A stretch of DNA of 64,000 nt from a bacterium (GTDB lineage Bacteria; JAAXHH01): positions 3,686,590 through 3,750,589 of the forward strand of contig OY762445.1 in the NCBI GenBank assembly GCA_963665755.1, written 5' to 3'. This document shows positions 3,894-56,780 of this stretch, in pieces. Each line of letters begins with the position of its first letter. The stretch's first letter is position 1. The position numbers were made by a program, and so were the translations under genes. The notes beneath the pieces are model-generated. The model was not told the DNA's origin and did not search any database. It saw only the letters and a list, made by a program, of their open reading frames with translations.

Positions 3894-4853
3894 ATGGTGT
3901 CTGAAGACGTCCTCAGGAGGCAGTTGGAATACGTTCTGCACGGTACCAGCTTCGACCTGGGCAGCAAATTCGAGGGCAAGGTCAGGGACAACTACAGTCT
4001 GGAAGGGAAGCGGATCATCGTGACCACCGATCGAATTTCCGCCTTCGACAGGGTGTTGTGCGCCCTTCCCTTCAAGGGCCAGGTCATCAACCAGACTGCG
4101 GCCTTCTGGTTCGAGCGGACCCGCCAGATAATCGAGAACCACCTGATCGACGTGCCGGATCCGAATGTACTTGTGGCCAGGGAGTGCCGGCTGATTCCCG
4201 TCGAGATGGTCGTCCGCGGCTACCTGACCGGCGTGACTACCACATCGGCGTGGTACCACTATAAACATGGGAATCGCAGTTTCTGCGGACACGCCCTGCC
4301 GGAGGGCATGAAGAAGAACCAGGCCTTCGACCAACCCATCATAACCCCTTCCACCAAGCCGGTACAGGGCGGCCATGACGAGTCCATCTCGGGGGAGGAG
4401 GTGCTTCGAAGAGGTCTCGTGGAAGAACCGGTGTATCGTGAAATGGAGCGAGCGGCCCTGGAACTGTTCGCATTCGGTACGGAAAAGGCCGCCGCCAATA
4501 ATCTCATCCTGGTGGATACCAAGTATGAGTTCGGTCTTTTTGAGGACCGGGTCATGCTGATCGACGAGATCCACACGCCAGACTCTTCCCGGTTCTGGGT
4601 AAAGAACACCTATCAGGATCTTTTCGAACGGGGCGAGGAGCCGGAAAAACTGGACAAGGAATTCGTCCGTGGATGGCTCGCGGACCGCGGTTTTCGTGGT
4701 GACGGTTCCATACCCCCTATCCCGGACGAGGTCAAAATTGAAGCTGCCCGCCGTTACATTAAGGCCTACGAGATGATAACCGCCAGAACCTTCGAAGCCC
4801 GAAACGAGGACGTGTTGCAGCGGATCACCCACCGGCTGCGGAACCCGAACTAG
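3894..4853 (+). CDS. purC: Phosphoribosylaminoimidazole-succinocarboxamide synthase (SAICAR synthetase), long form
   Basis: 319 aa, full-length similarity to PurC (SAICAR synthetase fold). Confidence 0.9.
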   Translation: MVSEDVLRRQLEYVLHGTSFDLGSKFEGKVRDNYSLEGKRIIVTTDRISAFDRVLCALPFKGQVINQTAAFWFERTRQIIENHLIDVPDPNVLVARECRLIPVEMVVRGYLTGVTTTSAWYHYKHGNRSFCGHALPEGMKKNQAFDQPIITPSTKPVQGGHDESISGEEVLRRGLVEEPVYREMERAALELFAFGTEKAAANNLILVDTKYEFGLFEDRVMLIDEIHTPDSSRFWVKNTYQDLFERGEEPEKLDKEFVRGWLADRGFRGDGSIPPIPDEVKIEAARRYIKAYEMITARTFEARNEDVLQRITHRLRNPN

Positions 4854-5066
4854 CAGACCACAGGACACGCTCGGAACGGATGCCATCGTCCGGGATCGTC
4901 CACCGGCTTTGGAACCCGAACTAGCTGACCACAGGATACGCTCGGAACGGATGCCATCGTCCGGGATCGTCCACCGGCTTTGGAACCCGAACTAGCTGAC
5001 CACAGGATACGCTCGGAACGGATGCCATCGTCCGGGATCGTCCACCGGCTTTGGAACCCGAACTAG
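4854..5066. repeat. Tandem direct repeat, 3 x 71 bp, copying the purC 3' end and its downstream sequence
   Basis: Units at 4854-4924, 4925-4995 and 4996-5066. Units 2 and 3 are identical; unit 1 differs at 2 positions. Each unit ends in CCACCGGCTTTGGAACCCGAACTAG, nearly identical to the last 25 nt of purC (CCACCGGCTGCGGAACCCGAACTAG). Confidence 0.9.
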
Positions 5067-5080
5067 CTGATCCCTCTCGT

Positions 5081-8000
5081 ATGCGCCTGTCAACCCTTCT
5101 TGAAATCTCGGAAAAGTCCCCCGTCGTAAAGCGTTACCTCGCGTTGGCCGCCGATACCGCCTGCTCCGCGCGGGTATCGGGGCTGGCGGGCTCTTCGCGC
5201 TCCCTTCTGCTCGCGCACGCGCATAACAAACGAAACGGTGCGACGCTGGTCATCGTGGAGGACACGGCCTCCGCCGAGGAGATGTTCGAGGATGTCTCCA
5301 GTCTACTGGATCCGGGGGACGTGGCGCTGTTCCCCCCCTGGGAGGTGCTGCCCTACGACCAGGTCTCTCCGCCGGGCGACCTGTCGGGACGGCGTCTCGG
5401 CGCGCTGCACGAACTGATGAAGAACAGGCCGCTGTTCGTCGTCGCCACGGTCAGGGCCGTCATGCAGCGCACCATGCCGCCGGCCGTGCTTGCCGGCTCC
5501 ATCCTTCACGTCGCCGCGGGCGCTACAATCTCGTTGAGCGATCTTACTGCGCGGTGCAACCGGCTCGGCTACGAGCGGACGGACATGGTCCAGGCGCCTG
5601 GCCACTTCAGCGTGCGGGGCGGTATCGTGGATGTTTTCCCTCACGGGATGGAACAGCCGTGCAGAATCGAGTTCTTCGGTGACGAAGTGGAATCGATTCG
5701 GCTGTTTGACATCTACACGCAGCGGTCGTCTCGGAACATCCCGGAACTGACGGTGCTCCCGAACAGGGAATTGATCGACGAGCCTGAAACGCGTGCCGAT
5801 GTGGTCAGACGGGTCAGGCAGGCGGCCGAATCGTTTTCGACCGACGCGTCCGAACTGGTCTCTCACATCGAGGACGGAGGTCTGTTCGAAGGCAGCGAAC
5901 GCTACCTTCCCTATTTTCATCCCTCCTCCGCCACCATCATGAATTACCTGCCGGACCACACGCTGATCGTCCGGTGCGAACCCGATGAATTGGAGCGCGA
6001 AGCGGAATCATTCGCGGAGGAATACGAAAACACCCACCATCGTCGAACAGAGGCGGGTGACCTGGTTCCCGTGCCGGAAGAAGCGATCCTGGGCTGGCAT
6101 GACATAAAGGAGGACTCGGCCTACTACGGCACGATGGAAATGGTGCGCGGCGCGCGCGCGTCCAAGGGCTGGCTCGCCGTCGGTACCGAGGCATCGGGCG
6201 TGTACCACGGGGCGATGGACGTCCTGAAGTCCCGGCTGGAGGAATGGAGTACGGACAACGCCCGGGTCGTGGTGGTTTGCGACAACGAAGGACAGGCGGA
6301 AAGACTGCGGGAGATCCTGGGTCCGGACGCCCCGGAGATCGAAATGGCCGTCGGACCGATGCACGCCGGGTTTGTACTTCCCGACTTGCCTCTCGTGGTA
6401 CTGACCGACGCGGAGATCTTCAATCGGTACCGCAGACGCCGTCGCAAGGTCTTCAAGGAAGGCGTGGTGATCGAGGATTTCACCAGCCTCAAAGAAGGGG
6501 ACTTCGTCGTCCACATCGACCACGGCATCGGCCGGTACGTAGGGTTGAAGCGAATCTCCGTGGACGACCGGGAACGGGACTGCCTGACCCTGATCTACGC
6601 CGCAGACGACCGGGTTTTCATCCCCATCGAGCAGTTGCACCGGGTTCAGAAGTACATCGGTTCAGATGGCGAGGTGCCCGCGTTGTCGAAACTGGGTGGG
6701 CGAGCCTGGGAACAGGCCAAGTCGCGCACCCGAAAGGCGGTCAGGGATATCGCCGAAGACCTGGTCAAGCTCTACGCGGCCCGGCAGGCCAGCCCGGGAC
6801 ACGCCTTCTCGGCCGACACTCCCTGGCAGACGGAAATGGAAGACTCCTTCATCTACGAGGATACCCCCGACCAGGAGTTGGCGACATCGGACGTGAAGTC
6901 GGACATGGAGAAATCGGTGCCCATGGACCGATTGATCTGCGGGGACGTGGGGTACGGGAAGACGGAAGTGGCGATTCGCGCCGCATTCAAGGCGGTGCTG
7001 GACGGGAAACAGGTCGCCGTGCTGGCCCCGACCACCATCCTGGCCCAGCAGCACCTGACCACCTTCTCCGAGCGGCTCGCGGACTACCCGGTAAACATAC
7101 GCATGCTGAGCCGCTTCGTTCCGGCGCAGGAACAGAAAACCGTTCTGTCCGGGCTCAGGAACGGCGACGTGGATGTCGTCATCGGCACGCACCGCCTCAT
7201 TTCCGCCGACATGGAATTTCATGACATGGGCCTGCTCGTCGTCGACGAAGAACAGCGGTTCGGCGTAGCCCACAAGGAGCGGCTCAAGCAGTTGAAGACC
7301 ACCGTGGACGTCATGACCATGACCGCCACGCCCATACCGCGGACGCTGCACATGTCGCTGGTTTCCGCCCGCGACATGTCTCTCATCACCACCCCGCCGA
7401 GGGACCGGTTGCCGGTGCACACCGAGGTGGTGCGTTTCAACGAGGATGTGATCTGCGAGGCGATCATGCGGGAGGTGGACCGGGGCGGCCAGGTCTTTTT
7501 CGTTCACAACCGGGTACAATCCATTGAGGCGGTCGCGGAATTCCTGCGTCGCCTCCTGCCCCAGGTATCTTTCGTCGTGGGCCATGGGCAGATGCAGGAG
7601 CGGGAACTGGAACAGGTGATGATCGACTTTCTGGATCAAAAGTACGATTGCCTCGTGTCCACGATGATCATCGAATCCGGACTGGATATTCCCAATGTGA
7701 ACACCATCCTGGTCAATCGCGCGGACCGGTTCGGACTTGCCCAGTTGTACCAGCTCCGGGGCCGCGTGGGGAGGTCGAATCACCGGGCCTACGCGTACCT
7801 GATGATCCCCGCCGCCGGAACGGTCACGCCCGACGCCCGCAAGCGGCTGGCCGTGATCTCCGAGTACACCGCGCTCGGATCGGGATTTCATATCGCCATG
7901 AGGGACCTCGAGATCCGTGGCGCGGGCAACCTGCTGGGCACGGAGCAGCACGGGTTCATATCCTCGATCGGGTTCGATCTATACTGCCGTCTGTTGAAGG

Positions 8001-8482
8001 AGGCGATGCAGGACCTCAAGGGCGAGACGCGCGAAGAGACCCACGAGGCCGAAATCGAGCTGCAGGTGAGCGCCTTCATTCCCGATGACTATATCGCCGA
8101 TCGAAAGCTCAAGGTCGGCTTCTACCAACGGCTTTCCCGGGTAGAAGAGGAAGGGGACGTCGTCTCGCTGCGGGAGGAGATGCAGGACCGGTTCGGTCGG
8201 CTTCCCGATCCGGTTCGCGTCCTTTTCGACCTGGTATCCATCCGGCAGATTGCGGCCCGGATCGGCTTGAAGCAGCTCAGCGTACGCGGTAATGAAATGG
8301 CCCTGACCTACAGGAACGGTCTCTACCCTTCGAGGGACAGGATCGCGAACGTGACGGACGATCCCGCACTGGACATCGAATTTCCCCACGGTGACGGGTT
8401 CCGGATCAGGGCGGGACTGACCGGAAAATCGGAAGCTGAACGGGTCGAAACAGCTAAAAACCTGTTGCTTAAACTGCTGTGA
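5081..8482 (+). CDS. mfd: Transcription-repair coupling factor
   Basis: About 1133 aa. UvrB-homology N-terminus, helicase Walker A (GDVGYGKTEVA) and DEEQRFGV motifs, and the TRCF C-terminal domain. Start moved to the ATG at 5081; the ORF track used an upstream TTG inside the repeat. Confidence 0.93.
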   Translation: MRLSTLLEISEKSPVVKRYLALAADTACSARVSGLAGSSRSLLLAHAHNKRNGATLVIVEDTASAEEMFEDVSSLLDPGDVALFPPWEVLPYDQVSPPGDLSGRRLGALHELMKNRPLFVVATVRAVMQRTMPPAVLAGSILHVAAGATISLSDLTARCNRLGYERTDMVQAPGHFSVRGGIVDVFPHGMEQPCRIEFFGDEVESIRLFDIYTQRSSRNIPELTVLPNRELIDEPETRADVVRRVRQAAESFSTDASELVSHIEDGGLFEGSERYLPYFHPSSATIMNYLPDHTLIVRCEPDELEREAESFAEEYENTHHRRTEAGDLVPVPEEAILGWHDIKEDSAYYGTMEMVRGARASKGWLAVGTEASGVYHGAMDVLKSRLEEWSTDNARVVVVCDNEGQAERLREILGPDAPEIEMAVGPMHAGFVLPDLPLVVLTDAEIFNRYRRRRRKVFKEGVVIEDFTSLKEGDFVVHIDHGIGRYVGLKRISVDDRERDCLTLIYAADDRVFIPIEQLHRVQKYIGSDGEVPALSKLGGRAWEQAKSRTRKAVRDIAEDLVKLYAARQASPGHAFSADTPWQTEMEDSFIYEDTPDQELATSDVKSDMEKSVPMDRLICGDVGYGKTEVAIRAAFKAVLDGKQVAVLAPTTILAQQHLTTFSERLADYPVNIRMLSRFVPAQEQKTVLSGLRNGDVDVVIGTHRLISADMEFHDMGLLVVDEEQRFGVAHKERLKQLKTTVDVMTMTATPIPRTLHMSLVSARDMSLITTPPRDRLPVHTEVVRFNEDVICEAIMREVDRGGQVFFVHNRVQSIEAVAEFLRRLLPQVSFVVGHGQMQERELEQVMIDFLDQKYDCLVSTMIIESGLDIPNVNTILVNRADRFGLAQLYQLRGRVGRSNHRAYAYLMIPAAGTVTPDARKRLAVISEYTALGSGFHIAMRDLEIRGAGNLLGTEQHGFISSIGFDLYCRLLKEAMQDLKGETREETHEAEIELQVSAFIPDDYIADRKLKVGFYQRLSRVEEEGDVVSLREEMQDRFGRLPDPVRVLFDLVSIRQIAARIGLKQLSVRGNEMALTYRNGLYPSRDRIANVTDDPALDIEFPHGDGFRIRAGLTGKSEAERVETAKNLLLKLL

Positions 8483-21635: not shown

Positions 21636-21757
21636 GCGCCTGCCCAGCAGTGGTAAGTGCCCGCCGTCAGCGATAAGCGCCCGCCGTCAGCGGCAGTCTC
21701 CAGCCGGCAACGGTAAGTGCCCACCGCGGAACCATGGCGCAGGCAGCCTGGAGTACC

Positions 21758-23269
21758 ATGGCCGATCAACCCAACATACTCCTTATCCTGTCCGACCAGA
21801 TGGTGGCCGCGCTGACCGGAACCTATGGACATCCCGTCGTCCGGACCCCTAACCTGGACAGACTGGCGGCAAACGGCGTGCGCTACGATGCCGCCTACAC
21901 CGCTTTTCCGCTCTGCGCGCCCGGCAGGGCCTGCCTGATGACGGGAAGGCATGCTTCGGAAATCGGCGCCTGGGACAACGGCGCACTGCTGCCTGCGGAC
22001 GAACCTACCTTTGCCCACTACCTGGCCCGTGCGGGTTACGATACCGTGCTGTCGGGAAAGATGCATTTCATCGGCCCGGACCAACTGCATGGATTCAGAA
22101 AGCGGCTGACCACCGACATATATTCCTCCGATTTCGATTGGGTAAAGCCGGAATGGATCCACCTGAAAGAATCCAGGGGTACGGATTTCGAGCAGGTCAT
22201 GAGCAACCGTCCGGCCTATAACGCGGCGGGGTACACGGGCGACGGCGTGCGGACCGGCGCCTGGCACGACGCCTTGAGTTACGACGAGGAAACCCATTTC
22301 CGCGCTATTGAATACCTGCGGGCCAGAAACTCCGGCGGGGAGGATGGCCCCTTTCTGCTCTGCGCGTCCTATCACCATCCGCACGAACCGTTCTGGCCGC
22401 CCGATGCCTATTGGAAACAGTATGAAGACGCGGACATCGACCTGCCCGTCTTTCCCGCCGGCCTGGACGATCACCATTCCATGATGGATCTGAACCTCAA
22501 CGCCTATCATGGTACCGGGCGTTACGATTTGCGGAACGAAGAGGGCCTTTACCGGCTTCGCCGCGCCTATTACGCCCTGGTGAGCTACATGGACGACAAG
22601 GTCGGTGGCCTGCTGGACGCGCTTGACGAAACCGGACTGGCTGAAAATACGGTGGTGGTCTTCGCCAGCGACCACGGCGATATGCTGTGCGAGCGGGGCA
22701 TGGTTCAGAAACGCTGTTTCTACGAATGGTCCTGCCGGGTGCCCCTCATCGTTCGCTTTCCAGATGGATGGAGGGCGGGTACGACCTTTTCCGATCCCGT
22801 GTCGCTGATCGATCTTCTGCCTACGTTCTGTGATCTCGCGGGCGTTGAAGACCGGCTTCCCCACGACGGCCAAAGTCTCGTGTCGGCGGCCGCGGACGAC
22901 GCGGACCGCGTGGTGTTCGCCCAGGCGCACGAGGCCGTGGGCATGCCCTGCATCATGGCGAGGCAGGGCCGGTACAAGTACCATTACATTCACGGTTTCG
23001 CCCCTCGGCTTTTTGATCTGGACAACGATCCGGGCGAATGGCATAATCTCTCCGGCGAGCACGCCGAGGACGCACACCGCCAGGTGGAAGCGCGTCTGCT
23101 CGCCCGGATCCTCGACCGGTTCGACCCGGATGTCATAGCGGAGGAAAACCTGGACAGCCTTTACCGGCGGCGCCTGATCCGGGATACCATGTCGCGGCAC
23201 GGACACACGTGGAGTCATGAGCCCGGTTTCGACCACCGGAAGGGCGCCATGAAACAGTATTTGAGCTAG
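21758..23269 (+). CDS. Sulfatase (formylglycine-dependent; choline/aryl-sulfatase-like)
   Basis: CAPGRACLMTGR contains the CxPxR formylglycine motif. Full-length sulfatase fold with the motifs GKMHFIG and VVFASDHGDM. Confidence 0.88.
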   Translation: MADQPNILLILSDQMVAALTGTYGHPVVRTPNLDRLAANGVRYDAAYTAFPLCAPGRACLMTGRHASEIGAWDNGALLPADEPTFAHYLARAGYDTVLSGKMHFIGPDQLHGFRKRLTTDIYSSDFDWVKPEWIHLKESRGTDFEQVMSNRPAYNAAGYTGDGVRTGAWHDALSYDEETHFRAIEYLRARNSGGEDGPFLLCASYHHPHEPFWPPDAYWKQYEDADIDLPVFPAGLDDHHSMMDLNLNAYHGTGRYDLRNEEGLYRLRRAYYALVSYMDDKVGGLLDALDETGLAENTVVVFASDHGDMLCERGMVQKRCFYEWSCRVPLIVRFPDGWRAGTTFSDPVSLIDLLPTFCDLAGVEDRLPHDGQSLVSAAADDADRVVFAQAHEAVGMPCIMARQGRYKYHYIHGFAPRLFDLDNDPGEWHNLSGEHAEDAHRQVEARLLARILDRFDPDVIAEENLDSLYRRRLIRDTMSRHGHTWSHEPGFDHRKGAMKQYLS

Positions 23270-23358
23270 ACGGGCGGGTCGGAACGGTCAGACTTTTCGA
23301 TTCGCGCTTACGAATACCCGCCTGAGAAGGCGGGCAGGCATCCAACAGGGGGTTGTTC

Positions 23359-24312
23359 ATGTTGCGCGCAGGGTTCATCGGCGCCGGGGGCCGTTCCCAG
23401 AGCGCCCACTACCCGGCGGTCGAGCGGTTGCCGGACGTCGAAATGACCGCCGTGTGCGAACTGGACGAGACGCGCCTGGCGCAGGTAACCGGACGCTACG
23501 ACTTTCCGCACGTATACACGGACCATCGCGCCATGCTCTCGGAAGTGGAGCTGGACGTGATCTACTGCGTCATGCATGAAAAATGGCTGCTCCAGCCCGC
23601 CCTCGACTGCCTTCGCGCGGGCAAGCATGTTTTCATGGAAAAACCTCCCGGCGCGAACAGCGGGGAGACGAGGCAGTTGATGGACGCCGCCGTGGAACAC
23701 GACGTGTACGCCATGGTGGGATATCAGCGTCGTTTTACCACGGTCGTCCGTGAAGCCATGCGGCGCGTACGCGAAAGAGGTCCCATCTCCCATGCCGTGA
23801 CCACCTTCAACAAGAAACTGCTGTATGACAAGCAACCGTACTCGACGACCCTGTGGGACGACGTGACCCACGTGGTGGACCTGCTGCGGTACATGGTGGG
23901 CAGCGAACCCGTTGAAGTGACCCGTTACCGGGACAAGTTTGAATCGGTCGCCTGGAATCACTACACGGCGCTGGTCCGTTTCGCCAGCGGCGCCACGGGC
24001 GTGGTATTCGGAAACCGCGCCTCCGGCGGCCGGGTGCTGAGCGCCGAACTGCACGGCGTGGGCATCGGCTGCTACATGAAGCTGCCCGAGGAAATCGACA
24101 TCCGCGAGGACGATCGCCAAACAGTCCTGCAGGGCTGGGAGATTAGCGGCGATGACGCGGAAGATTCGCCCCGTTACGAGGGAGCGCTCGCCATGCACGA
24201 GCACTTCGTGGATTCCGTACGCAACCAGACCATCCCCGTCAGCGATCTTCGGGACGTCATACATACCATCCGCCTCGTAGACTGGATCGAATCGGGGCAT
24301 CGTCCCGATTAG
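23359..24312 (+). CDS. Gfo/Idh/MocA family oxidoreductase
   Basis: N-terminal Rossmann motif GFIGAGG; MocA-type dehydrogenase fold. Confidence 0.82.
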   Translation: MLRAGFIGAGGRSQSAHYPAVERLPDVEMTAVCELDETRLAQVTGRYDFPHVYTDHRAMLSEVELDVIYCVMHEKWLLQPALDCLRAGKHVFMEKPPGANSGETRQLMDAAVEHDVYAMVGYQRRFTTVVREAMRRVRERGPISHAVTTFNKKLLYDKQPYSTTLWDDVTHVVDLLRYMVGSEPVEVTRYRDKFESVAWNHYTALVRFASGATGVVFGNRASGGRVLSAELHGVGIGCYMKLPEEIDIREDDRQTVLQGWEISGDDAEDSPRYEGALAMHEHFVDSVRNQTIPVSDLRDVIHTIRLVDWIESGHRPD

Positions 24313-24415
24313 GGCGGCGTAAGGTAGCGCGGCCAGCCCGCATCGCGCCGCCGTAAATGGCCGCGGCAGCGCACCGTAAATGGCCGCGGCGCCCGGTCAC
24401 CAGACCCCTCGCATC

Positions 24416-24874
24416 ATGCAACGGCTCAATTTTCCGGAATACGCATTCGAAATCGAATCGGACGACGCGGGCCGCAGCGTCATTTTCGACGGGGTCCGGC
24501 GCAGGTTCGTTCGCCTGACACCCGAAGAATGGGTCAGGCAGCACCTGGTGCGCTACCTGGTCGAGGACCGGGGCTTCCCGGCAGGCTGGGCGGCCGTGGA
24601 AAAAGGCTTCCAGTACGCCGGCACAGCCGTTCGCGCCGATGTGATCATGCATGATCGGAACGGCCGGCCGGTCCTGATGGGTGAATGCAAAGCGCCGGAG
24701 GTTCGCATGACCGAAGCCGTATTCGAGCAACTGGCCCGGTACAATTCGGTCATCAACGCCCGGTACCTGGTGGCTACCAACGGCAAGACGCACTACTGTT
24801 GCGAACACAAGGCCGGCGGCGGTTACCGCTTTCTTTCGGAACTGCCCCGCTTCGAGGGTGCCCGAGGAGTCTGA
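24416..24874 (+). CDS. Type I restriction enzyme HsdR N-terminal (PD-(D/E)xK-like) domain protein, standalone
   Basis: About 150 aa, resembling HSDR_N-type small proteins (ADVIMHDRNGRPVLMGECKAPE core). Confidence 0.5.
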   Translation: MQRLNFPEYAFEIESDDAGRSVIFDGVRRRFVRLTPEEWVRQHLVRYLVEDRGFPAGWAAVEKGFQYAGTAVRADVIMHDRNGRPVLMGECKAPEVRMTEAVFEQLARYNSVINARYLVATNGKTHYCCEHKAGGGYRFLSELPRFEGARGV

Positions 24875-24876
24875 TC

Positions 24877-25680
24877 GTGGCGGAAGGACTGATACTCGCG
24901 GCCCGGGAATCATTGGAACAGCGGGTCGAAGCCCTGGAGCAGGAGGGTTATGTCTTCTTCCCCGGTGCACTCTCCGGAGAAGAGGTCGCCGTATTGCGAA
25001 AAGCCATGGACCGGCTTGAAGCCCGGCCCGAGGAATACGACCGGCATACGGACCCCGAGACCCACGGGTTCCTGAACAAGTCCATCAACAATGTATTCAA
25101 TCGCGACCCCGTATTCCTGTCCTTTCTGGACCGTCCGGACGTCATCGACGTGGTCGAAGCCGCCCATGGACCGGACTGTCACGTCATCGGCATGACGGCG
25201 TGGATGACGGGCCCCGGCCGGCCGGACCAGGGCATCCACGTGGACTGGCAGCCGCTGGAACTGCCCGAAGACGTCATGGACGATCCGCGGGTCGAGGTGC
25301 CCGTTTACATCTCCACGGTCCACTATTATCTGGACGATCTCTACGAGGCCCTGGGCCCCACGCAGTTCATTCCAGGCAGCCACCGGGCCGGCCGCGTACC
25401 CGCCGCCGGGGAATCCGCCTGGCGCGGAGTCGAACCCCGCAGCATCCTCTGCGCGGCTGGAGACGCCGTCCTGTTTCGCTACGAGGTCTGGCACCGCGGG
25501 ACGGCGAACACGAGCGACCGGGTGCGCTACCTGCTCCAGGTCCACTACGCCCGGCGCATGATCACGCAGAAGTTCCCGCCCTACCTGAACCGGTTCCGGT
25601 TCGACCCGGCCATCCTGTCCCGCGCCACGGACCGCCAGCGCCGGTTGTTGGGCGAGCATGTGCAGGGCAATTACGACTGA
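24877..25680 (+). CDS. Phytanoyl-CoA dioxygenase (PhyH) family protein
   Basis: GTG start. PhyH-like double-stranded beta-helix with His/Asp...His iron ligands. Confidence 0.75.
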   Translation: MAEGLILAARESLEQRVEALEQEGYVFFPGALSGEEVAVLRKAMDRLEARPEEYDRHTDPETHGFLNKSINNVFNRDPVFLSFLDRPDVIDVVEAAHGPDCHVIGMTAWMTGPGRPDQGIHVDWQPLELPEDVMDDPRVEVPVYISTVHYYLDDLYEALGPTQFIPGSHRAGRVPAAGESAWRGVEPRSILCAAGDAVLFRYEVWHRGTANTSDRVRYLLQVHYARRMITQKFPPYLNRFRFDPAILSRATDRQRRLLGEHVQGNYD

Positions 25681-25794
25681 TTTTCCAAGGATCTATCGCG
25701 CGTCGAGGCGAGTATTTACTCGAGAATGTGTTGACGAGTAGCGACTGAAGATTGATAACACATCTTTAGCTTTCGAGTATCTTGGGAGATAGTC

Positions 25795-26010
25795 ATGAAC
25801 GAAGACAGTCGCTACGCTCGTAATGACGATGAAGTTGACACGCCTGCATTGTCTGCTCAAGTAAACGAGGAGTTCGAGAAGCTGCAGAAGAGGTTGGCGG
25901 AGTTGCGCCGCCAGGGTATACTGATTGGCGGCTATGGCCCGAGCAAGCCCTTTCGCCCGGTTGCCCGCGTTCCCGGAGGGTTAGCCCGATTTCTCGCCGA
26001 ACGGGAGTAG
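25795..26010 (+). CDS. Small antitoxin-like protein, putative partner of the adjacent truncated vapC
   Basis: 71 aa, lying 6 nt upstream of a PIN-domain N-terminus. SD-like GGGAGA precedes the start. Confidence 0.45.
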   Translation: MNEDSRYARNDDEVDTPALSAQVNEEFEKLQKRLAELRRQGILIGGYGPSKPFRPVARVPGGLARFLAERE

Positions 26011-26016
26011 GATTGC

Positions 26017-26165
26017 ATGGTTAAAACGCCTGCGATTTCCTCGATGGCGTACGTGGACACTTCTGCTATATTATCCATAGTCTTCGAAGAGCCGGATTGG
26101 GAGTTAACTGCGCACAGGCTGGCCGAGTTTCCCGTGCTGTTGTCGTCGAACTTGCTGGAAGCGGA
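26017..26165 (+). pseudogene. vapC: vapC (PIN-domain toxin), 3'-truncated remnant
   Basis: MAYVDTSAILSIVFEEP...LLEAEMRSA is the N-terminal ~45 aa of a PIN domain. The frame then loses similarity and overlaps the mod reading frame. Confidence 0.55.
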
Positions 26166-26633
26166 AATGCGTTCCGCGACCCACCCTATAACACAGGCAA
26201 CGAGGATTGGATCTACAACGATAGAGTAAACAGTCCGCTGATGAAGGCGTGGTTCGCGGAGCAAAGCCCGGTGGACGGCGAGGATCTGGAGGGACATGAC
26301 AAGTGGCTATGCATGATGTGGCCAAGACTTCACCTGCTCAAGGAACTGCTAGCAGACGATGGTGTCATTTTCGTGTCCATCGATGACAACGAGCAGCACC
26401 ACCTCCGGATGTTGATGGATGAGGTTTTTGGTGAAGATCGTTTTCTAGGGGAGTTTGTTTGGAAGAGCCGACAAAACAGAGATAACCGTAATGTGACTGG
26501 CGCATCAATCGATCACGAATATGTCCTTTGCTACGGAGCATCTATAAGAGGCGACGAAAGAAAGACCGATCAGTATTCGAATCCAGACAACGACCCAAGA
26601 GGAGACTGGGCTAGCGGTAACATGGTTGGGCTA

Positions 26634-27812
26634 GTGTCACGTCCCAGAAATAGCCTTACATAATCGTTCGATTTTGTGCAGGATCGATGTCGTGGTGGCG
26701 GTCCATACGAAAGGTTTTGACGTCTGGTTGTAGTTGTCGGTGAAGGTATGGATGCTTTCGATGAGTTCTTTCACGGATCTGAAGGAGCCCCGCCTGATGG
26801 CCTTCTGTGTGATGATATTGAACCAGATTTCGACCTGGTTGAGCCAGGATGCGTAAGTGGGGGTAAAGTGGATGTGGTATCTGGGTCGTTTCGCCAGCCA
26901 TCGCTTTACCCTGGTGTGCTTGTGTGTAGAGTAATTGTCGACGATCAAGTGCACATCGAGTGCTTTCGGGACGTTATCATCGATGTGGTTGAGAAACTGC
27001 AGGAACTCCTGGTGGCGGTGCCTGCGCTTGCATTGCGCCATAATCTCGCCGGAGGCGATGTCCAGGGCGGCAAACAACGTCGTGGTGCCGTGCCGGAGGT
27101 AATTGTGGGTTACGCCTTCCACGTATCCCAGCCCCATGGGCAAAAGCGGTTGGGTACGTTCCAGAGCCTGCGTCTGGCTCTTCTCGTCGACACAAAGCAC
27201 TATCGCCGCATCCGGCGGGTTCAGATACAGTCCGACAATGTCGTGCACTTTCTCGGTGAAGAAGGGATCGTTGGACAGCTTGAAGTGCTTCTGCCGGTGG
27301 GGCGCAATGCCCAGGGTGGACCAGATGCGCTGCACTTCGGATTTGGATATCTTCGTTTCGGCAGCGATGGACCGGCACGTCCAATGGGTGCTGCCATCGG
27401 GTGGTTTCGTGGTGAGCGTCTTGCGTATCAAGGCGGTGATGTCTTCGGCGACAACGCTGCGCGGTCTGCCCGGCCGGCGTTCATCGTAGAGCCCCATCAA
27501 CCCTTGCCGGAGAAAACGGTTGCGCCAGGTGCCCACGCTCTGCGCACTCAGCCCCACCTGCTGTGCAATCGCCCGGTTGCTGAGGCCGTCGGCGCTCAGC
27601 AAAATGATATGGGCGCGTCGCACGAGTCCGTGCGACAACGTACGCGACCGGGACAGTGACATCAGTTCCTCCCGGACCTGCGGAGACAACACAATCGGTT
27701 TCCTCGGACGACCGCGTCCCATGATTCTCTCCTTTGTCAAAGGTGTATCAAGCGTATGGAGTGAATATAGGACATCTGCAATATAAATCAAGTTATTTTA
27801 GGGACATGACAC
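26634..27812 (-). mobile_element. IS630-family insertion sequence, 1179 bp, inserted at CTAG with a TA target duplication
   Basis: Imperfect terminal inverted repeats: GTGTCACGTCCCAGAAATAGCC on the left, against the reverse complement of GGGACATGACAC... on the right. Flanking TA at 26632-26633 and 27813-27814 within a reconstructed CTAG target. Confidence 0.85.
26637..27722 (-). CDS. IS630-family DDE transposase
   Basis: 362 aa starting at MGRGRPRKP (HTH), with a DDE-type domain (CVDEKS ... VDNYSTHK). Looks intact. Confidence 0.88.
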
Positions 27813-28781
27813 TAGCAACTGAAGAATCTCGTCCAAATTTACATTTTGATCTAATTGATCCAGAAACGGGTACCAATTATGGCTGCCCTCCTAGAGGTTG
27901 GCGATATGACCTTGAACGCATGTATGAACTGATTTCGGAAGGAAGAATACTTTGGCCTGAAAACCCTAAAGGAAGGCCAAGGGTCAAAGTCTTTCTGAAG
28001 GAACTGAGAAATACCTTTACAGGATTTTCGTCCCTAATTGGCGAAGGGGTTTTCACAAGAAATGGGACTCTAGAAATAGAAGACATTTTTTCCTCAAGAG
28101 TTATTGAGTTTCCCAAGCCGTCTGAACTTGTGCGTCAGTTGATTCTTCAGGGATGTCCTGATGTGGGTATAGTTCTAGACTCCTTCGCCGGCAGCGGAAC
28201 AACTGCCCATGCTGTACTCGCCCTCAACAAAGAAGACGGCGGCAATCGCAAGTTCATTCTCGTAGAGTGTGAGGACTATGCTGACACCATTACAGCCGAG
28301 CGCGTGCGCCTGGTGAGTAAGGGCATTCCCAACTCGCAAGATGAGTCCTTGCAAGTAGGGCTCGGGGGTTCCTTTACCTACTGCACGCTGGGTGACCCAA
28401 TAGACGTCGAAGGGATGTTGACCGGCGAAGCGCTTCCAGATTTTTCGACTTTGGCAGCCTATTTGTTGCACACATCAGCAGGACTCTCTACCGGAGTCGA
28501 TTTACTGCAACCAGAGAACGAAGACGGGCTTTTTTACAGCAGTGACACTACCAACTACTACCTCATGTATAAACCTGACGTGGGTTATCTGAGCAGTAAC
28601 GAGGCGATGCTGAATGGGGAGCGGGCGCGGCGCATCAGTACATCAAGCCAAGAAGCTGGGGTGAAAGCCATTGTTTTCGGGCCTGGCAAATACATTGGCC
28701 AGCGCAATCTGACATCCATGGGTATCACCTTCTGCCAACTACCCTACGAGATACATAGAGCCGGGCAATAGGGAGTTCGTT

Positions 28782-31322
28782 GTGGAACTGAAGGAATACC
28801 AGGCCAATACGATTGAGGTGTTTGCTACCTGGCTGGACGCCGTCACTACGGCTCGACTACAGTCCCAGACTGCCATAGACGCTTTGAAGCAAGCGGGGAC
28901 CGCCATCACGATTCCCGGTGATCTTAATGACTATCCAAAGACGGCATGGCGCCAGTTAAAGAACTCCGGCCTTGTTGCGAATACCGCCGGCGAATACGTC
29001 AGTCGAACCGATGATGCGGACCGACCCATTCCCCACGTCTGCTTCAAAGTACCTACGGGAGGAGGTAAGACGCTACTTGCCGCCGCCGCGTTGCAGCGAC
29101 TCCGCCGGCAAACGGGACTGACACTGTGGGTCATGCCAACGCGTGCTATTTACGAACAAACCAAAGCGGCGTTGAAGATCCGGGAGCACCCATACCGGCA
29201 AATGTTGGAAATCGCCAGCGCAGGGCGGGTCAAGCTTCTGGAAAAGGATGACCTGTTTACCAGGTCGGATATAGACAATTACCTTTGCATCATGCTCCTC
29301 ATGCTACCTGCCGCCAACCGGCAGCGAGGTCGCGACTTCTTGCGGATGTTCCGTGATTCCGGGCGGTATCCCACGCTTTTTCCGGATAGCGACGATTTGT
29401 TTGGCGATGCCAGACTACTAAACGACTACCCTGACCTGGAGCGGGTTTCAAAACATGGTCCTGTGAAACACAGTCTTTTCAATGTGTTTAAAATGTTACG
29501 TCCGGTTGTGATACTGGACGAAGCACACAAGGCTTATGGCGCACGCAATTTAGAAGCCAATGAGGAGTTCGCGCGGTCAGTCAGCCGTCTCGACCCCAGC
29601 CTGGTGATCGAACTCTCCGCAACGCCGAACCGTGGGATAAGCAACCTACTGGTAGACATTACCGGTGTCGAACTTAAAAACGAGGAGATGATTAAGCTTC
29701 CGGTGCAAGTGACTTCGTTCACCAATGCCGATTGGCACTATACCCTGGCTCAGGCACACGACGAACTGGAGCGCCTTGACTCGGAAGCGAGATCATTGCA
29801 GATGAGCGACGGCAGTTACATCCGGCCGATTGCGGTGGTTCGCGTAGAGCGCACGGGAAGAGACCAACGGGACGGCGAGCGCGTGCACGCGGAGGACGTG
29901 AGAGAATACCTGATACAGAATCTTGGGGTTCATGAAGATGCCATTGCCGTCAAGTCGTCCGAATTGGATGAACTGGCGGATGCAGACTTACTTTCGGGAT
30001 ACTCCCCAATACGCTGGGTGATAACCAGGGCAGCTTTGATGGAGGGTTGGGACTGCCCATTCGCCTATCTGCTTGTCATGCTCGACAACACGAGTGCCCA
30101 GCGCGCCATCACGCAACTGGTCGGCCGGGTGATGCGACAACCTTACGCGCGTCGAACCGGTCGTGAGTCGTTGGATCAGTGCTATGTCTATTGTTGGAAT
30201 ACAAGAGTGGGCGAAGCGGTCGCACAGGTAAAGCGGGGATTGGAAGCGGAAGGGTTGACTGGCCTGGCGGACGCGGTGACCAGCAACTCGACAGACTTTC
30301 GACGGATCACCATACAAAGACGAGAAGGCCTGGAAGATAAAACCATATTCCTTCCATTGGTTTTGCATCAGGACGGTGATGGGTGGTGCGAGTTGGATTA
30401 CCAAACCCATATCCTTCCCAAAATCAATTGGAATGCGATTGAGGCGCCAGATCCGCAGAGGAGTCTTCCCGATCGCGCCGTCCGGCAATCCGCAAGCGTC
30501 GATGTTGGCGAAGTCCCTCCCGTTTTCTATTCCGAAACCGAGTTGAATATTGACAAGGCAGTTCAGGTAAATTGGATCGCCCGGCGACTGACGGACGTAC
30601 TCCCGAATCCGTGGCAGGCGGCTCGGGTGGCGCAGCAGTTTGTACAAAAGCTCTTGGCTGCAGGCGACTCTGAAAATGAGATTTACGATCGGCGTTCATA
30701 CTTGGCATTCGCTTTGCGGGACCACGCTTTGATACAGTTGCAACAGCAAGCTGAGAAGGTTTTTCGGTGTAAGCTGCGTAATGGTCAGATTCGATTCGAC
30801 TTGGAAGCAGGCCAACCGAATTTCCGAATGGTAGAGCGTTACGAGATACCTATTTCAAGCGATATGTCGCTACTGACCGGAAACGATGGGCGACAGGTAC
30901 AACTCAGCCTGTTCGAACCCATATATTCGCAACAGTTCGATTCGGCGTTGGAAGTGAGTTTCGCACGATACCTCGATGAACAAAAGGCATTGAAATGGTG
31001 GCACCGGGTGGCGGTCCGGCAACGTGGCGATTACTATCTCCGGGGCTGGAAACAGGAGCGCATCTGGCCGGATTTCGTTGCCATGGGTGGCGAGACGAAC
31101 GGGAAGCCCCATGTCCTGGTTTTCGAGACCAAGGGAGAGCACCTTCGTGGTAGTCCGGATACCGATTACAAGCAGCAAGTGCTTGAATCGTTGCAAAATG
31201 CCTTCAATTGCGGAACGATGACCGTCCATGACGGTCCGGCTACGGGTACGTTTCGTCTTGTGTTCAATGAAGCCGAGTTTCCAACGACCTTGACCAAGCT
31301 TGAACAGGCTTACCAAGCATGA
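28782..31322 (+). CDS. res: Type III restriction enzyme Res subunit (SF2 helicase plus endonuclease)
   Basis: Walker A VPTGGGKT, DEAH box ILDEAHK, and a C-terminal PD-(D/E)xK-like region. Immediately downstream of mod. Confidence 0.88.
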   Translation: MELKEYQANTIEVFATWLDAVTTARLQSQTAIDALKQAGTAITIPGDLNDYPKTAWRQLKNSGLVANTAGEYVSRTDDADRPIPHVCFKVPTGGGKTLLAAAALQRLRRQTGLTLWVMPTRAIYEQTKAALKIREHPYRQMLEIASAGRVKLLEKDDLFTRSDIDNYLCIMLLMLPAANRQRGRDFLRMFRDSGRYPTLFPDSDDLFGDARLLNDYPDLERVSKHGPVKHSLFNVFKMLRPVVILDEAHKAYGARNLEANEEFARSVSRLDPSLVIELSATPNRGISNLLVDITGVELKNEEMIKLPVQVTSFTNADWHYTLAQAHDELERLDSEARSLQMSDGSYIRPIAVVRVERTGRDQRDGERVHAEDVREYLIQNLGVHEDAIAVKSSELDELADADLLSGYSPIRWVITRAALMEGWDCPFAYLLVMLDNTSAQRAITQLVGRVMRQPYARRTGRESLDQCYVYCWNTRVGEAVAQVKRGLEAEGLTGLADAVTSNSTDFRRITIQRREGLEDKTIFLPLVLHQDGDGWCELDYQTHILPKINWNAIEAPDPQRSLPDRAVRQSASVDVGEVPPVFYSETELNIDKAVQVNWIARRLTDVLPNPWQAARVAQQFVQKLLAAGDSENEIYDRRSYLAFALRDHALIQLQQQAEKVFRCKLRNGQIRFDLEAGQPNFRMVERYEIPISSDMSLLTGNDGRQVQLSLFEPIYSQQFDSALEVSFARYLDEQKALKWWHRVAVRQRGDYYLRGWKQERIWPDFVAMGGETNGKPHVLVFETKGEHLRGSPDTDYKQQVLESLQNAFNCGTMTVHDGPATGTFRLVFNEAEFPTTLTKLEQAYQA

Positions 31323-32543: not shown

Positions 32544-32777
32544 TTCGAGACGACTCCCAAATCCCGGCGTGCTTACTTGTAACGTAGGCTTGGAACGCCG
32601 AGTACACGGACGAGTTCGGGAAATGGTGAGCCGGTTTTGCCATCCGAAAACAGAATTATATTGGCAACGGCTGTCGAATTGCTGATGACGTACAGACCAT
32701 GACTCACGGACCGGGCAGAGGTGGAAGGTTGTCCAACCTTACAAATGGTTGACCTGTTTCGGCGGCCCACCTAGCCT

Positions 32778-33610
32778 TCATGGCGAGTACATTCGCGAAG
32801 TCGAGCCGACGTAACAGTATTTCATGGAAATCCCGTCCATACAGATGACGCTCTTGCCCCTCCCGAAGGCGGTGAGCCCGTCAGGGGAGAACCCGGTGTA
32901 GCTCAACAGTAGACCGCGAGACCAACTCGCCTTGTCCTGTACCTTGGCGTTAAAGGAACGAAGCGTCGTAGCATCGACCAAGTCGTTAGTCCATCCAGCT
33001 TCGAGCAGATAGATATCGCCCCCCGACACGAAACTGCCGTCAATCTGCTCGCCCACCAGGCGAAAGGAAGGTCGTGCAGACAGCCCGTAGGCATCAAACA
33101 TATCCTTCAGGAACTTTTCGAATGCATAGCCGCGAGGTTGCGGCTCCAGTTTGGACAATTGCAACAAGCGATGCGCAAGATCCGAAGCGACTGTTGCATC
33201 CATTTGTGGTATTTCTGACTGTGCCGAATCGCTATAGGACCTCTGACGTGTTTGGCGACGTGCCCCCCCAGTCGTTCAATGATTCTAAAGAAGGCAACTC
33301 GTACCTTATCATCCAGTTCCGGATAGTCGTGAGTCACGCTGCTGACTTCACGGTATTCCCAAAGTGCGTTCAGCGTATCAAGAACCGTTTTTCGGTTCGC
33401 GTGTCGTAAGAAATAGCGCAGGCGCTTCGCCTTGCTCTCGCCGTCAACTGCCCAACGGGGATGGTAGACATCGACTCGTAGTTCTTCTTGGAAGAACTCG
33501 GCGAAGGTCCGATTCGAGAAATCTAGTACGTAGCCGTCTTCCATACCGAAAACCTTGTCGAGGATCGGGATGTCCACCGTTCGGATCTTCGGATTCGATG
33601 TTCCGTTCAT
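32778..33610 (-). pseudogene. Restriction-endonuclease-like (Mrr-cat/PD-(D/E)xK) domain protein with an apparent frameshift
   Basis: Two overlapping minus-strand ORFs, 33107-33610 and 32778-33203, lie in different frames. The downstream ORF carries an Mrr_cat-like core (GYAFEKFLKDMF...IDGSFVSGGDIYLLEAGW). Confidence 0.5.
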
Positions 33611-56550: not shown

Positions 56551-56780
56551 ACCTCTCCCTTCGGCGTATTGACTGTTTTAAGCCATGCAAGATGTCGCTG
56601 GAACGATTTCGGCTCATCTCCATGCAGATTCGGGATTTGTTGATGAAGACTCACGCTTCGAACATGGTGGTATATAAACAAATGCATTCGGGAATAGTAG
56701 TTTTGTACTTTAATTGTTGACGGTTCACCCCTGCCGTGTTATCTTGGCGTCTCCATTCACTATACCCCAGGAGACGCACC

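What the first reader, a model, noticed from the sequence alone, without database searches (positions are those of the whole stretch)
26097..31322. Type III R-M operon whose mod gene is cleanly split by an IS630 element at a CTAG site
The mod reading frame stops at 26633 and resumes at 27815. Between these sits a 1179-bp element with imperfect terminal inverted repeats. It is flanked by TA duplications inside a reconstructed CTAG target, which is the canonical IS630 target. The element encodes an intact IS630 transposase. Removing it rejoins DPPYNTG...GNMVGL|ATEESRP...DSFAGSGTT in frame, so the insertion is probably recent. The downstream res gene, with helicase motifs VPTGGGKT and ILDEAHK, looks intact. 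Type III Res needs Mod to recognise the target, so the system is presumably silent. This is a natural knockout caught before further decay.
Basis: partly seen in the sequence, partly recalled or inferred. Interest (0 to 1): 0.6.

Follow-up and report, generated by a model that had tools for sequence, protein, structure and literature searches.

The report
Doubly broken Type III restriction-modification operon
A bacterial DNA-defence operon (Type III restriction-modification) has lost its methylase gene twice over, once to a jumping gene inserted at a CTAG site and once to a 518-base deletion that also destroyed the neighbouring toxin gene. This is ordinary gene decay, not the clean, reversible knockout first proposed.

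Summary
The sequence-level observation holds. A 1179-bp IS630-family element (26634-27812) sits in a Type III mod gene. It has imperfect inverted repeats, a TA duplication inside a CTAG target, and an intact transposase. Removing it rejoins the frame without a gap against 537-aa homologues. The res gene (846 aa) is full length with all its motifs.

Four syntenic relatives carry vapB(71 aa)-vapC(135 aa)-mod(537 aa)-res(846 aa). The window lacks 518 bp of that layout, with the junction at 26177/26178 and a 2-bp CG microhomology. This deletion removes vapC codons 55-135, the 72-bp spacer, and mod's ribosome-binding region, start codon and first 67 codons. The lost codons include a segment conserved with solved Type III Mod structures. 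Removing the insertion sequence (IS) would therefore not restore Mod.

Both lesions occur together in at least seven independent metagenome assemblies, and no IS-free allele was found. Substitution rates (dN/dS) on the window's branch are not raised for mod or res, so the loss is recent on that scale.

CTAG is about 8-fold depleted in the window but concentrated in mod, which makes mod a likely target. A nearby Mrr-like gene is frameshifted too. This is an ordinary, well-documented case of defence-locus decay.

The parts
25795..26010 (+). vapB-like antitoxin gene (71 aa), intact
   Evidence: Same length and position as the 71-aa gene upstream of the PIN gene in L004, L091, L092 and L093. No Pfam hit. 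The antitoxin role is inferred from its position next to the PIN gene.
26017..26229 (+). Truncated vapC (PIN-domain toxin) remnant. Codons 1-54 (26017-26178) are homologous; the frame then runs 16 more codons into mod sequence before a stop.
   Evidence: Pfam PIN matches profile positions 2-44 of 120 only. The L004 orthologue is 135 aa, and DNA homology ends at window 26178.
26177..26178 (.). Junction of a 518-bp deletion (relative to L004 7683-8200), with 2-bp CG microhomology
   Evidence: blastn segments L004 3215-7682 = window 21703-26178 and L004 8201-8658 = window 26177-26634. Base-by-base view. The same junction, encoding an identical 70-aa product, is on 7 contigs.
26178..26633 (+). mod 5' fragment (codons 68-219 of a 537-codon gene). 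It starts at DPPY and has no native start codon or RBS.
   Evidence: Alignment A1; tblastn of P0001; blastn against L004.
26632..26633 (.). Left copy of the TA target-site duplication (within CTA|G)
   Evidence: The empty site in L004 reads GGGGCTAGCAAC.
26634..27812 (-). IS630-family insertion sequence, 1179 bp. Imperfect terminal inverted repeats lie at about 26634-26657 and 27789-27812.
   Evidence: for the inverted repeats. Absent from L004. Relatives at 84-90% DNA identity over the full 1179 bp have the same ends and CTA|IS|TAG flanks.
26637..27722 (-). IS630-family DDE transposase gene, 361 aa from the ATG (the open frame extends to a TTG at 27791)
   Evidence: NCBIfam NF033545 at 270.5 bits, profile 1-299 of 299. 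Pfam DDE_3 2-146 of 146 plus HTH domains. 578 relatives in genome contigs; all but four of the 80 kept align to query residues 1-361.
27813..27814 (.). Right copy of the TA target-site duplication
27815..28771 (+). mod 3' fragment (codons 220-537 plus stop), containing DSFAGSGTT (motif I)
   Evidence: Gene callers report a 283-aa product (P0088) from this fragment in three other assemblies.
28782..31322 (+). res gene, 846 aa, apparently intact. It has a GTG start 10 nt after the mod stop, preceded by GGGAG.
   Evidence: PADLOC REase_III PDLC03653, E 3.1e-188, residues 1-829. Pfam ResIII. Walker A at residue 91, DEAH at 246, PD at 763 and ETK at 782, all conserved; gap-free alignment to four 846-aa orthologues.

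Best explanation
The locus is a chromosomal vapBC toxin-antitoxin pair followed directly by a two-gene Type III restriction-modification operon (mod then res). Related genomes keep this arrangement intact. In the window's lineage two independent mutations disabled it.

(1) A 518-bp illegitimate deletion, joined at a 2-bp CG microhomology, removed the last 81 codons of vapC, the 72-bp vapC-mod spacer, and the first 67 codons of mod. The spacer loss took mod's translation-start region with it. The two remnants were fused out of frame.

(2) An IS630-family element was inserted by its DDE transposase at the TA of a CTAG between mod codons 219 and 220, duplicating the TA.

Either lesion alone abolishes Mod. 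In Type III systems Mod recognises the DNA, and restriction requires both subunits. The intact res ORF is therefore inert, and losing Mod is not suicidal. In the same way, losing the toxin while keeping the antitoxin is a safe way to lose a TA module.

Shown here: both lesions, their exact boundaries, their presence in several assemblies, family memberships, and the absence of a raised dN/dS.

Inferred: loss of function, harmlessness of the orphan Res, and independence of the two events. Their order is unknown.

mod was a likely target because it holds 7 of the window's 26 native CTAG sites in a genome otherwise depleted of CTAG.
For: Synteny and deletion:
- L004, L091, L092 and L093 all carry vapB71-vapC135-mod537-res846 between PhyH and a cyclase gene.
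- blastn shows the window lacks L004 7683-8200. The junction is seen base by base.

Conserved part of Mod that was lost:
- Alignment A1 shows residues 1-67 missing.
- That segment (nliihGDNLhaLKallprYvgKvKcIYI) aligns to the solved Mod structures 6k0w_B and 4zcf_A.

IS:
- Boundaries, TA duplication and CTAG target.
- Five related IS copies all show CTA|IS|TAG.
- IS630 family score.
- IS630 has a 2-bp duplication and a CTAG target motif (PMC2577343, Table 1).

Type III membership:
-.

Reality of both lesions:
- Seven contigs encode the exact junction-spanning 70-aa product. Five of the six shown also have the 140-aa mod fragment that ends in the IS; the sixth contig ends before it.
- Three further contigs start inside the IS and continue into mod' and res at 99.9-100% identity.

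Recency:
- Pairwise omega for the window against relatives is 0.07-0.10 for mod and 0.06-0.08 for res, the same as between relatives.
- Window-specific changes are 13 synonymous to 5 nonsynonymous in mod and 40 to 9 in res.

Target bias:
- The window has 27 CTAG against about 229 expected.
- 7 of 26 native sites lie in mod's 1.4 kb, binomial p about 1e-6.
Against: - No expression or methylation data exist, so 'silent' is an inference.
- The order of the two lesions is unresolved. No allele carrying only one of them was found.
- The dN/dS test has little power to detect a short period of relaxed selection on a long branch (dS to the nearest relative is about 0.65).
- The CTAG-availability argument explains opportunity, not cause.
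- The vapB and vapC roles rest on a weak PIN match (18 bits, below the Pfam cut-off, for the truncated copy; 'faint' to unmarked in relatives) and on gene order.
Confidence: 0.9

Rival explanations
1. A single, clean, recent IS630 insertion is the only lesion, so precise excision or in-silico removal restores a functional Mod and hence the whole system.
For: The frame is continuous across the junction, and the junction aligns without a gap to homologues. There are no other stops or frameshifts in the retained mod codons, and res is intact.
Against: The restored ORF lacks the first 67 of 537 codons, the native start and the upstream spacer. All of these are present in four syntenic relatives. 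The missing part is conserved in EcoP15I and H. pylori Mod.
Confidence: 0.03
2. The 518-bp gap and/or the IS insertion are assembly or binning artefacts (chimeric joins at repeats), not real features of the genome.
For: Contigs of this lineage in other assemblies break inside the IS, which shows the IS is a repeat that troubles assemblers.
Against: The deletion junction is reproduced exactly on 7 contigs from different samples and assemblers (MEGAHIT-style k119, SPAdes NODE, Logan, scaffolds). The left IS junction is on L005-L008 and L010, and the right junction on L001-L003. L007 spans from vapB across the left junction and through nearly the whole IS (to window 27777). The deletion is in unique sequence, not at a repeat.
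Confidence: 0.02
3. The orphan Res is retained by selection because it has a Mod-independent role or pairs with another methyltransferase, rather than merely not having decayed yet.
For: The res ORF is full length with all catalytic motifs and omega about 0.06-0.08. It keeps a GGGAG and GTG start. A second beta-class methyltransferase gene exists at 56736-58061.
Against: The same low omega is expected if inactivation is simply recent. The second methyltransferase is only 28% identical over 145 aligned positions, best matches Type II models, and is fused to an HNH domain. In Type III enzymes Mod provides recognition and stabilises Res (PMC3874151; PMC8259958). res now lies downstream of an IS transcribed in the opposite direction, with no demonstrated promoter.
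Confidence: 0.05

Closest known systems
IS630 (the E. coli/Shigella prototype) and the bacterial IS630 family
   Same: A single DDE transposase with N-terminal HTH domains, short imperfect terminal inverted repeats, a size of about 1.1-1.2 kb, and insertion at the TA of CTAG with TA duplication (PMC2577343).
   Different: It is a distinct, apparently unnamed member. The closest copies in one-genome-per-species representatives are 90% and 88% identical at the protein level, in uncultured MAGs (an unclassified 'bacterium' and Latescibacterota). ISfinder could not be consulted.
EcoP15I / EcoP1I and H. pylori-type Type III R-M systems
   Same: mod-then-res operon. The beta-class Mod has DPPY before the target-recognition region and FxGxG after it. 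Res has SF2 helicase motifs and a C-terminal PD-(D/E)xK. Mod matches 4zcf_A at E 1.6e-50 and 6k0w_B at E 1e-66.
   Different: Mod is shorter (537 aa against 618-644 aa). Res is only distantly related to EcoP15I Res by sequence (E 0.0015), although it matches a PADLOC Type III Res model end to end. Here the system is non-functional.
R-M genes inactivated by IS insertion or deletion, and defence-island decay in general
   Same: Loss of a defence system through the subunit whose loss is tolerated. Neighbouring defence or toxin genes (vapC, an Mrr-like gene) are also degraded.
   Different: There is nothing mechanistically new. The specific feature is one deletion disabling two adjacent modules (TA toxin and Mod) plus a second hit by an IS.

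Membership tests
IS630 family insertion sequence | DDE transposase of the IS630/Tc1/mariner type | tested here: met
   NCBIfam NF033545 at 270.5 bits (cut-off 100), profile 1-299 of 299. Pfam DDE_3 at 4.1e-22, profile 2-146 of 146.
IS630 family insertion sequence | Terminal inverted repeats bounding the element | tested here: met
   11 of the first 12 and 18 of the first 24 bases are complementary. The ends coincide with the edges of the sequence absent from L004 and with the ends of 84-90% identical copies.
IS630 family insertion sequence | 2-bp TA target duplication, with preference for CTAG | tested here: met
   TA at 26632-33 and 27813-14. The empty site in L004 is CTAG. Five related copies show CTA|IS|TAG. 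The family rule is from PMC2577343, Table 1.
IS630 family insertion sequence | Transposition activity or multiple copies in the genome | tested here: inconclusive
   Only one copy is in the window. Multicopy status is inferred because every other assembly breaks inside the IS and nearly all SNPs between assemblies lie inside it. The exact transposase was not found elsewhere.
Type III restriction-modification system | Beta-class N6/N4 methyltransferase (Mod), with DPPY before and FxGxG after the recognition domain, homologous to known Type III Mods | tested here: met
   For the family (intact orthologue P0001): PADLOC MTase_III PDLC03644, residues 1-534 against profile 1-541 of 542, E 5.7e-141; PDB 6k0w_B at 1e-66 and 4zcf_A at 1.6e-50. 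For the window copy: only codons 68-537 are present, split by the IS.
Type III restriction-modification system | Res with SF2 helicase/ATPase motifs and a C-terminal PD-(D/E)xK nuclease | tested here: met
   PADLOC REase_III PDLC03653, E 3.1e-188. Pfam ResIII. PTGGGKT at residue 91, DEAH at 246, PD at 763 and ETK at 782. The feature list is from PMC8259958.
Type III restriction-modification system | mod immediately upstream of res in one operon | tested here: met
   The mod stop is at 28771 and the res start at 28782. The spacing is the same in four relatives.
Type III restriction-modification system | Functional: hemimethylation of an asymmetric site and ATP-dependent cleavage needing two inverted sites | not testable with these tools
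   This needs methylome data or biochemistry. In the window copy it is predicted absent because Mod is destroyed.
VapBC (PIN-domain) type II toxin-antitoxin | PIN-domain toxin preceded by a small antitoxin gene | tested here: inconclusive
   The window remnant scores 18.4 bits against PIN, below the 23.6 cut-off. Precomputed PIN hits on the 135-aa orthologues range from faint to unmarked. NCBIfam and PADLOC give no hit. The gene order (a 71-aa gene 6-7 nt upstream) fits.

The most novel reading that the evidence does not exclude
In genomes strongly depleted of CTAG, CTAG-specific IS630-family elements may be channelled into the few CTAG-rich genes. Here that is a lower-GC mod gene holding 7 of 26 native sites. 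Foreign or defence genes would then be preferential IS sinks, and target-site scarcity would itself bias which genes are knocked out. A second, less likely reading is that the intact orphan Res is retained for a Mod-independent role.
Probability: 0.15. Interest if true: 0.4.

Novelty: new member of a known kind. Interest (0 to 1): 0.2.

Why it matters
The main value is as an annotation correction. The locus should be annotated as a mod pseudogene with two lesions, a vapC pseudogene, an unnamed IS630-family element and an orphan res. It should not be annotated as an IS-interrupted but otherwise restorable R-M system.

It is a tidy, fully resolved example of how defence and addiction modules are lost by routes that avoid self-killing: toxin before antitoxin, and Mod in a system where Res depends on Mod. 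It also shows how the CTAG specificity of IS630 elements, combined with genome-wide CTAG avoidance, can focus insertions on particular genes. None of this changes current understanding.

Tried and rejected
- I looked for IS-free or single-lesion alleles. The protein search with the restored Mod returned no hit above 90% identity other than the 283-aa 3' fragment.
- Exact-pattern scans of JGI metagenome contigs for the lineage-specific empty site and for the deletion junction both found nothing. The lineage is therefore absent from that collection, and the negative result on the empty site is uninformative.
- An exact look-up of the window's 361-aa transposase found no record. The copy on L007 differs at 4 residues.
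- The genome-contig scan with the transposase gave relatives at 90% identity or less, so neither the source species nor its IS copy number could be read off.
- The listing of cluster members gave no organism names.
- Rfam and tRNA scans of the window found nothing.
- I considered whether the deletion could be an IS-mediated adjacent deletion. I rejected this because its right end lies 456 bp from the IS and the junction shows only a CG microhomology, with no IS sequence.
- I considered reversible, phase-variable switching by precise IS excision. I rejected this because the 5' deletion makes the gene unrestorable.
- Truncated or frameshifted Mod homologues in other lineages might indicate recurrent loss. 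Several come from long-read MAGs or contig ends, so I did not rely on them.
Full report
**Observation**

- The mod frame ends ...GGT AAC ATG GTT GGG CTA at 26633 and resumes GCA ACT GAA GAA at 27815.
- The element between them is 26634-27812, exactly 1179 bp.
- Its ends, GTGTCACGTCCCAGAAATAGCC and (reverse-complemented) GTGTCATGTCCCTAAAATAAC, agree at 11 of the first 12 and 18 of the first 24 positions.
- TA is found on both sides (26632-33 and 27813-14). Removing the element plus one TA gives GGGCTAGCAAC.
- This is not just a plausible reconstruction. The syntenic relative L004 has GGGGCTAGCAAC, uninterrupted, at the same place.
- The minus-strand ORF (361 aa from the ATG at 27722) scores 270 bits against NCBIfam's IS630 transposase model over its whole length. 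It has a complete DDE_3 domain plus HTH domains.
- Five related IS copies from other genomes are all flanked CTA|IS|TAG. This matches the published IS630 rule of a 2-bp duplication within CTAG (PMC2577343, Table 1).

The 'restored' ORF was searched against the protein collection and aligned.
- It is colinear with a family of about 537-aa proteins and has no gap at the IS junction.
- Homology starts abruptly at DPPYNTG. The family's first 67 residues (MPTLDFKGKQH...NLIIHGDNLHALKALLPRYxGKVKCIYI) have no counterpart.
- The frame upstream of DPPY in the window is open only by chance. The TTG at 26097 is not a gene start.
- A different frame there encodes the first 54 residues of a PIN-domain protein (Pfam PIN, profile positions 2-44 of 120).

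**The intact form of the locus**

Looking up the closest intact Mod (P0001, 90% identical) returned a syntenic locus, L004 from GCA_022823465.1. P0002, P0003 and P0004 gave three more.
- All four show the same order: GFO/IDH/MocA oxidoreductase, HSDR_N_2 protein, PhyH dioxygenase, a 71-aa gene, a 135-aa PIN gene, mod (537 aa), res (846 aa), cyclase.
- blastn of L004 against the window gives three colinear blocks. They imply two differences: the window lacks L004 7683-8200 (518 bp), and it contains 26635-27811, which L004 lacks.
- The base-level view places the deletion junction at ...GAAATGCGTTCCG[CG]ACCCACCCTATAAC..., with CG shared by both sides.
- The deleted segment holds vapC codons 55-135 and its stop, the 72-bp spacer, and mod codons 1-67.
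- Because 518 is not a multiple of three, the remnants are fused out of frame.

**Importance of the lost part of Mod**

- phmmer against PDB sequences aligns P0001 residues 18-187 to EcoP15I Mod (4zcf_A, E 1.6e-50) and residues 35-373 to an H. pylori Mod (6k0w_B, E 1e-66).
- The stretch 'nliihGDNLhaLKallprYvgKvKcIYIDPPYNTG' is nearly identical in all three.
- It is the conserved segment leading into catalytic motif IV.
- I infer that a protein beginning at DPPY would not fold as a methyltransferase. This is an inference from conservation, not a test.

**Is it really Type III?**

- PADLOC models call the intact orthologue MTase_III end to end (PDLC03644, E 5.7e-141).
- They call the window's Res REase_III end to end (PDLC03653, E 3.1e-188).
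- Res has Walker A (PTGGGKT, residue 91), DEAH (246) and a C-terminal PD(763)...ETK(782). All are conserved in four orthologues of identical length. These are the features listed for Type III Res in PMC8259958.
- mod ends 10 nt before the res GTG, which is preceded by GGGAG.
- By sequence alone, Res is only remotely similar to EcoP15I Res.

**Are the lesions real, and how widespread are they?**

- The 70-aa product that spans the deletion junction is encoded exactly on seven contigs from several samples and assemblers. Five of the six shown also have the 140-aa mod fragment that terminates in the IS; the sixth (L009) ends before it.
- Three more contigs start inside the IS and run through mod' and res at 99.9-100% identity.
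- All these contigs break at different points inside the IS.
- Almost every SNP between assemblies lies inside the IS. L007's IS differs at 16 positions. This is the signature of a multicopy repeat collapsed by assemblers.
- No allele of this lineage without the IS appeared in the protein search.
- Two metagenome scans were uninformative because the lineage is absent from that collection.
- Both lesions therefore look fixed in the sampled populations. Their order cannot be determined.

**Timing**

I made codon alignments of the window with the four relatives and computed Nei-Gojobori dN/dS and lineage-specific changes.

| Gene | Omega, window vs relatives | Omega, relative vs relative | Window-specific syn : nonsyn |
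|---|---|---|---|
| mod (470 shared codons) | 0.074-0.101 | 0.056-0.106 | 13 : 5 |
| res | 0.062-0.077 | 0.060-0.076 | 40 : 9 |

- The syn:nonsyn ratios for the window are within the range of the other taxa and of the control genes.
- There are no further stops or frameshifts in the retained codons.
- The inactivation is thus recent relative to a branch with dS of a few tenths. The test could not detect a short period of neutrality.

**Mechanism and logic**

Established knowledge:
- Restriction by Type III enzymes needs both subunits.
- Mod provides sequence recognition (PMC8259958; PMC3874151).
- In P1/P15, Mod also stabilises Res.

Inference:
- With Mod gone, Res is harmless, so losing Mod first is a safe path.
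- Likewise, the deletion removed the toxin's C-terminal 60% while leaving the putative antitoxin intact.
- The deletion is an ordinary illegitimate-recombination event. It is not IS-mediated, because its nearer end is 456 bp from the IS and the junction contains no IS sequence.

**Why mod was hit**

- CTAG occurs 27 times in the 64-kb window against about 229 expected from base composition.
- Seven of the 26 native sites lie in the 1.4 kb of mod and none in res (binomial p about 1e-6).
- mod is also the lowest-GC part of the locus (0.50 against 0.60 for the window).
- Orthologous mod genes are CTAG-enriched as well, at 1.2-3.1 per kb against 0.4-1.2 per kb in their flanks.
- For a CTAG-specific element, mod is therefore one of the largest targets available locally.

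**Context**

- The neighbourhood is a small defence islet and is decaying in more than one place.
- An Mrr_cat-like gene (32704-33610, minus strand) is spread over three frames, with net +2 and -4 nt relative to the 302-aa L004 orthologue.
- One assembly (L006) lacks 236 bp covering the 3' end of the HSDR_N_2 gene.

**Verdict**

The interpretation of a clean, single, potentially reversible knockout is wrong in an important detail. The gene carries a second, larger lesion that also destroyed the adjacent toxin gene. The biology is ordinary (an IS insertion plus a deletion in a defence locus), so interest is low. The IS is a new member of a known family.

Noticed in passing
window 32704-33610 (-): An Mrr_cat-like restriction-endonuclease gene is spread over three reading frames. 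It has a net +2 nt near 33253-33269 and -4 nt near 32833 relative to the intact 302-aa orthologue in L004 (14943-15851). This is a second defence pseudogene within 2 kb of res. The same state is seen in L001-L003.
   Followed up: partly
window 1-64000; mod at 26178-28771: CTAG is about 8-fold under-represented (27 observed against about 229 expected). It is concentrated in mod (7 of 26 native sites, none in res). Orthologous mod genes in L004, L091, L092 and L093 are also CTAG-enriched relative to their flanks.
   Followed up: partly
window 4822-5070: A tandem repeat of a 71-bp unit, 3.5 copies at 96% identity, with each unit containing a CTAG. It lies just upstream of a 1143-aa ORF (5051-8482). 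It is not CRISPR-like, because the whole unit is repeated. Function unknown.
   Followed up: partly
window 56736-58061 (+): A 441-aa beta-class DNA methyltransferase (DPPFNKG ... DPFAGCATT) with a C-terminal HNH-like nuclease motif (LELDHNTPRADGG...NRILLCGPCNRLKSN). Its best PADLOC hits are Type II methyltransferases. It is 28% identical to the Type III Mod over 145 aligned positions.
   Followed up: partly
L006 (ERZ23492361 scaffold_2773), against window 24642-24877: This otherwise 100% identical contig lacks 236 bp covering the 3' part of the HSDR_N_2 gene up to the PhyH start. It is either a strain-level deletion or a scaffolding artefact.
   Followed up: no
window 32.5-37 kb, against L004 13.4-17.6 kb: Gene order downstream of the cyclase gene differs between relatives. 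In the window, the Mrr-like/AbiEii-like/368-aa block lies between the cyclase and the short-chain dehydrogenase. In L004 the dehydrogenase comes first. L092 lacks the Mrr-like gene, and L091 has a 152-aa Mrr_cat gene. This is a variable defence islet.
   Followed up: no
proteins P0077, P0079, P0083, P0087, P0089, P0101: Several Mod homologues from other lineages, some on Mb-scale contigs, are N- or C-terminally truncated or switch to unrelated sequence as after a frameshift. This could mean recurrent mod loss in this family, or indel errors in long-read MAGs.
   Followed up: no
window 27724-27791 (-), inside the right end of the IS: Two sigma-70-like promoter matches (TTGATT-16-TATATT and TTGATA-16-GAGAAT) lie just upstream of the transposase ATG. 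They are plausible transposase promoters but are consensus matches only.
   Followed up: no
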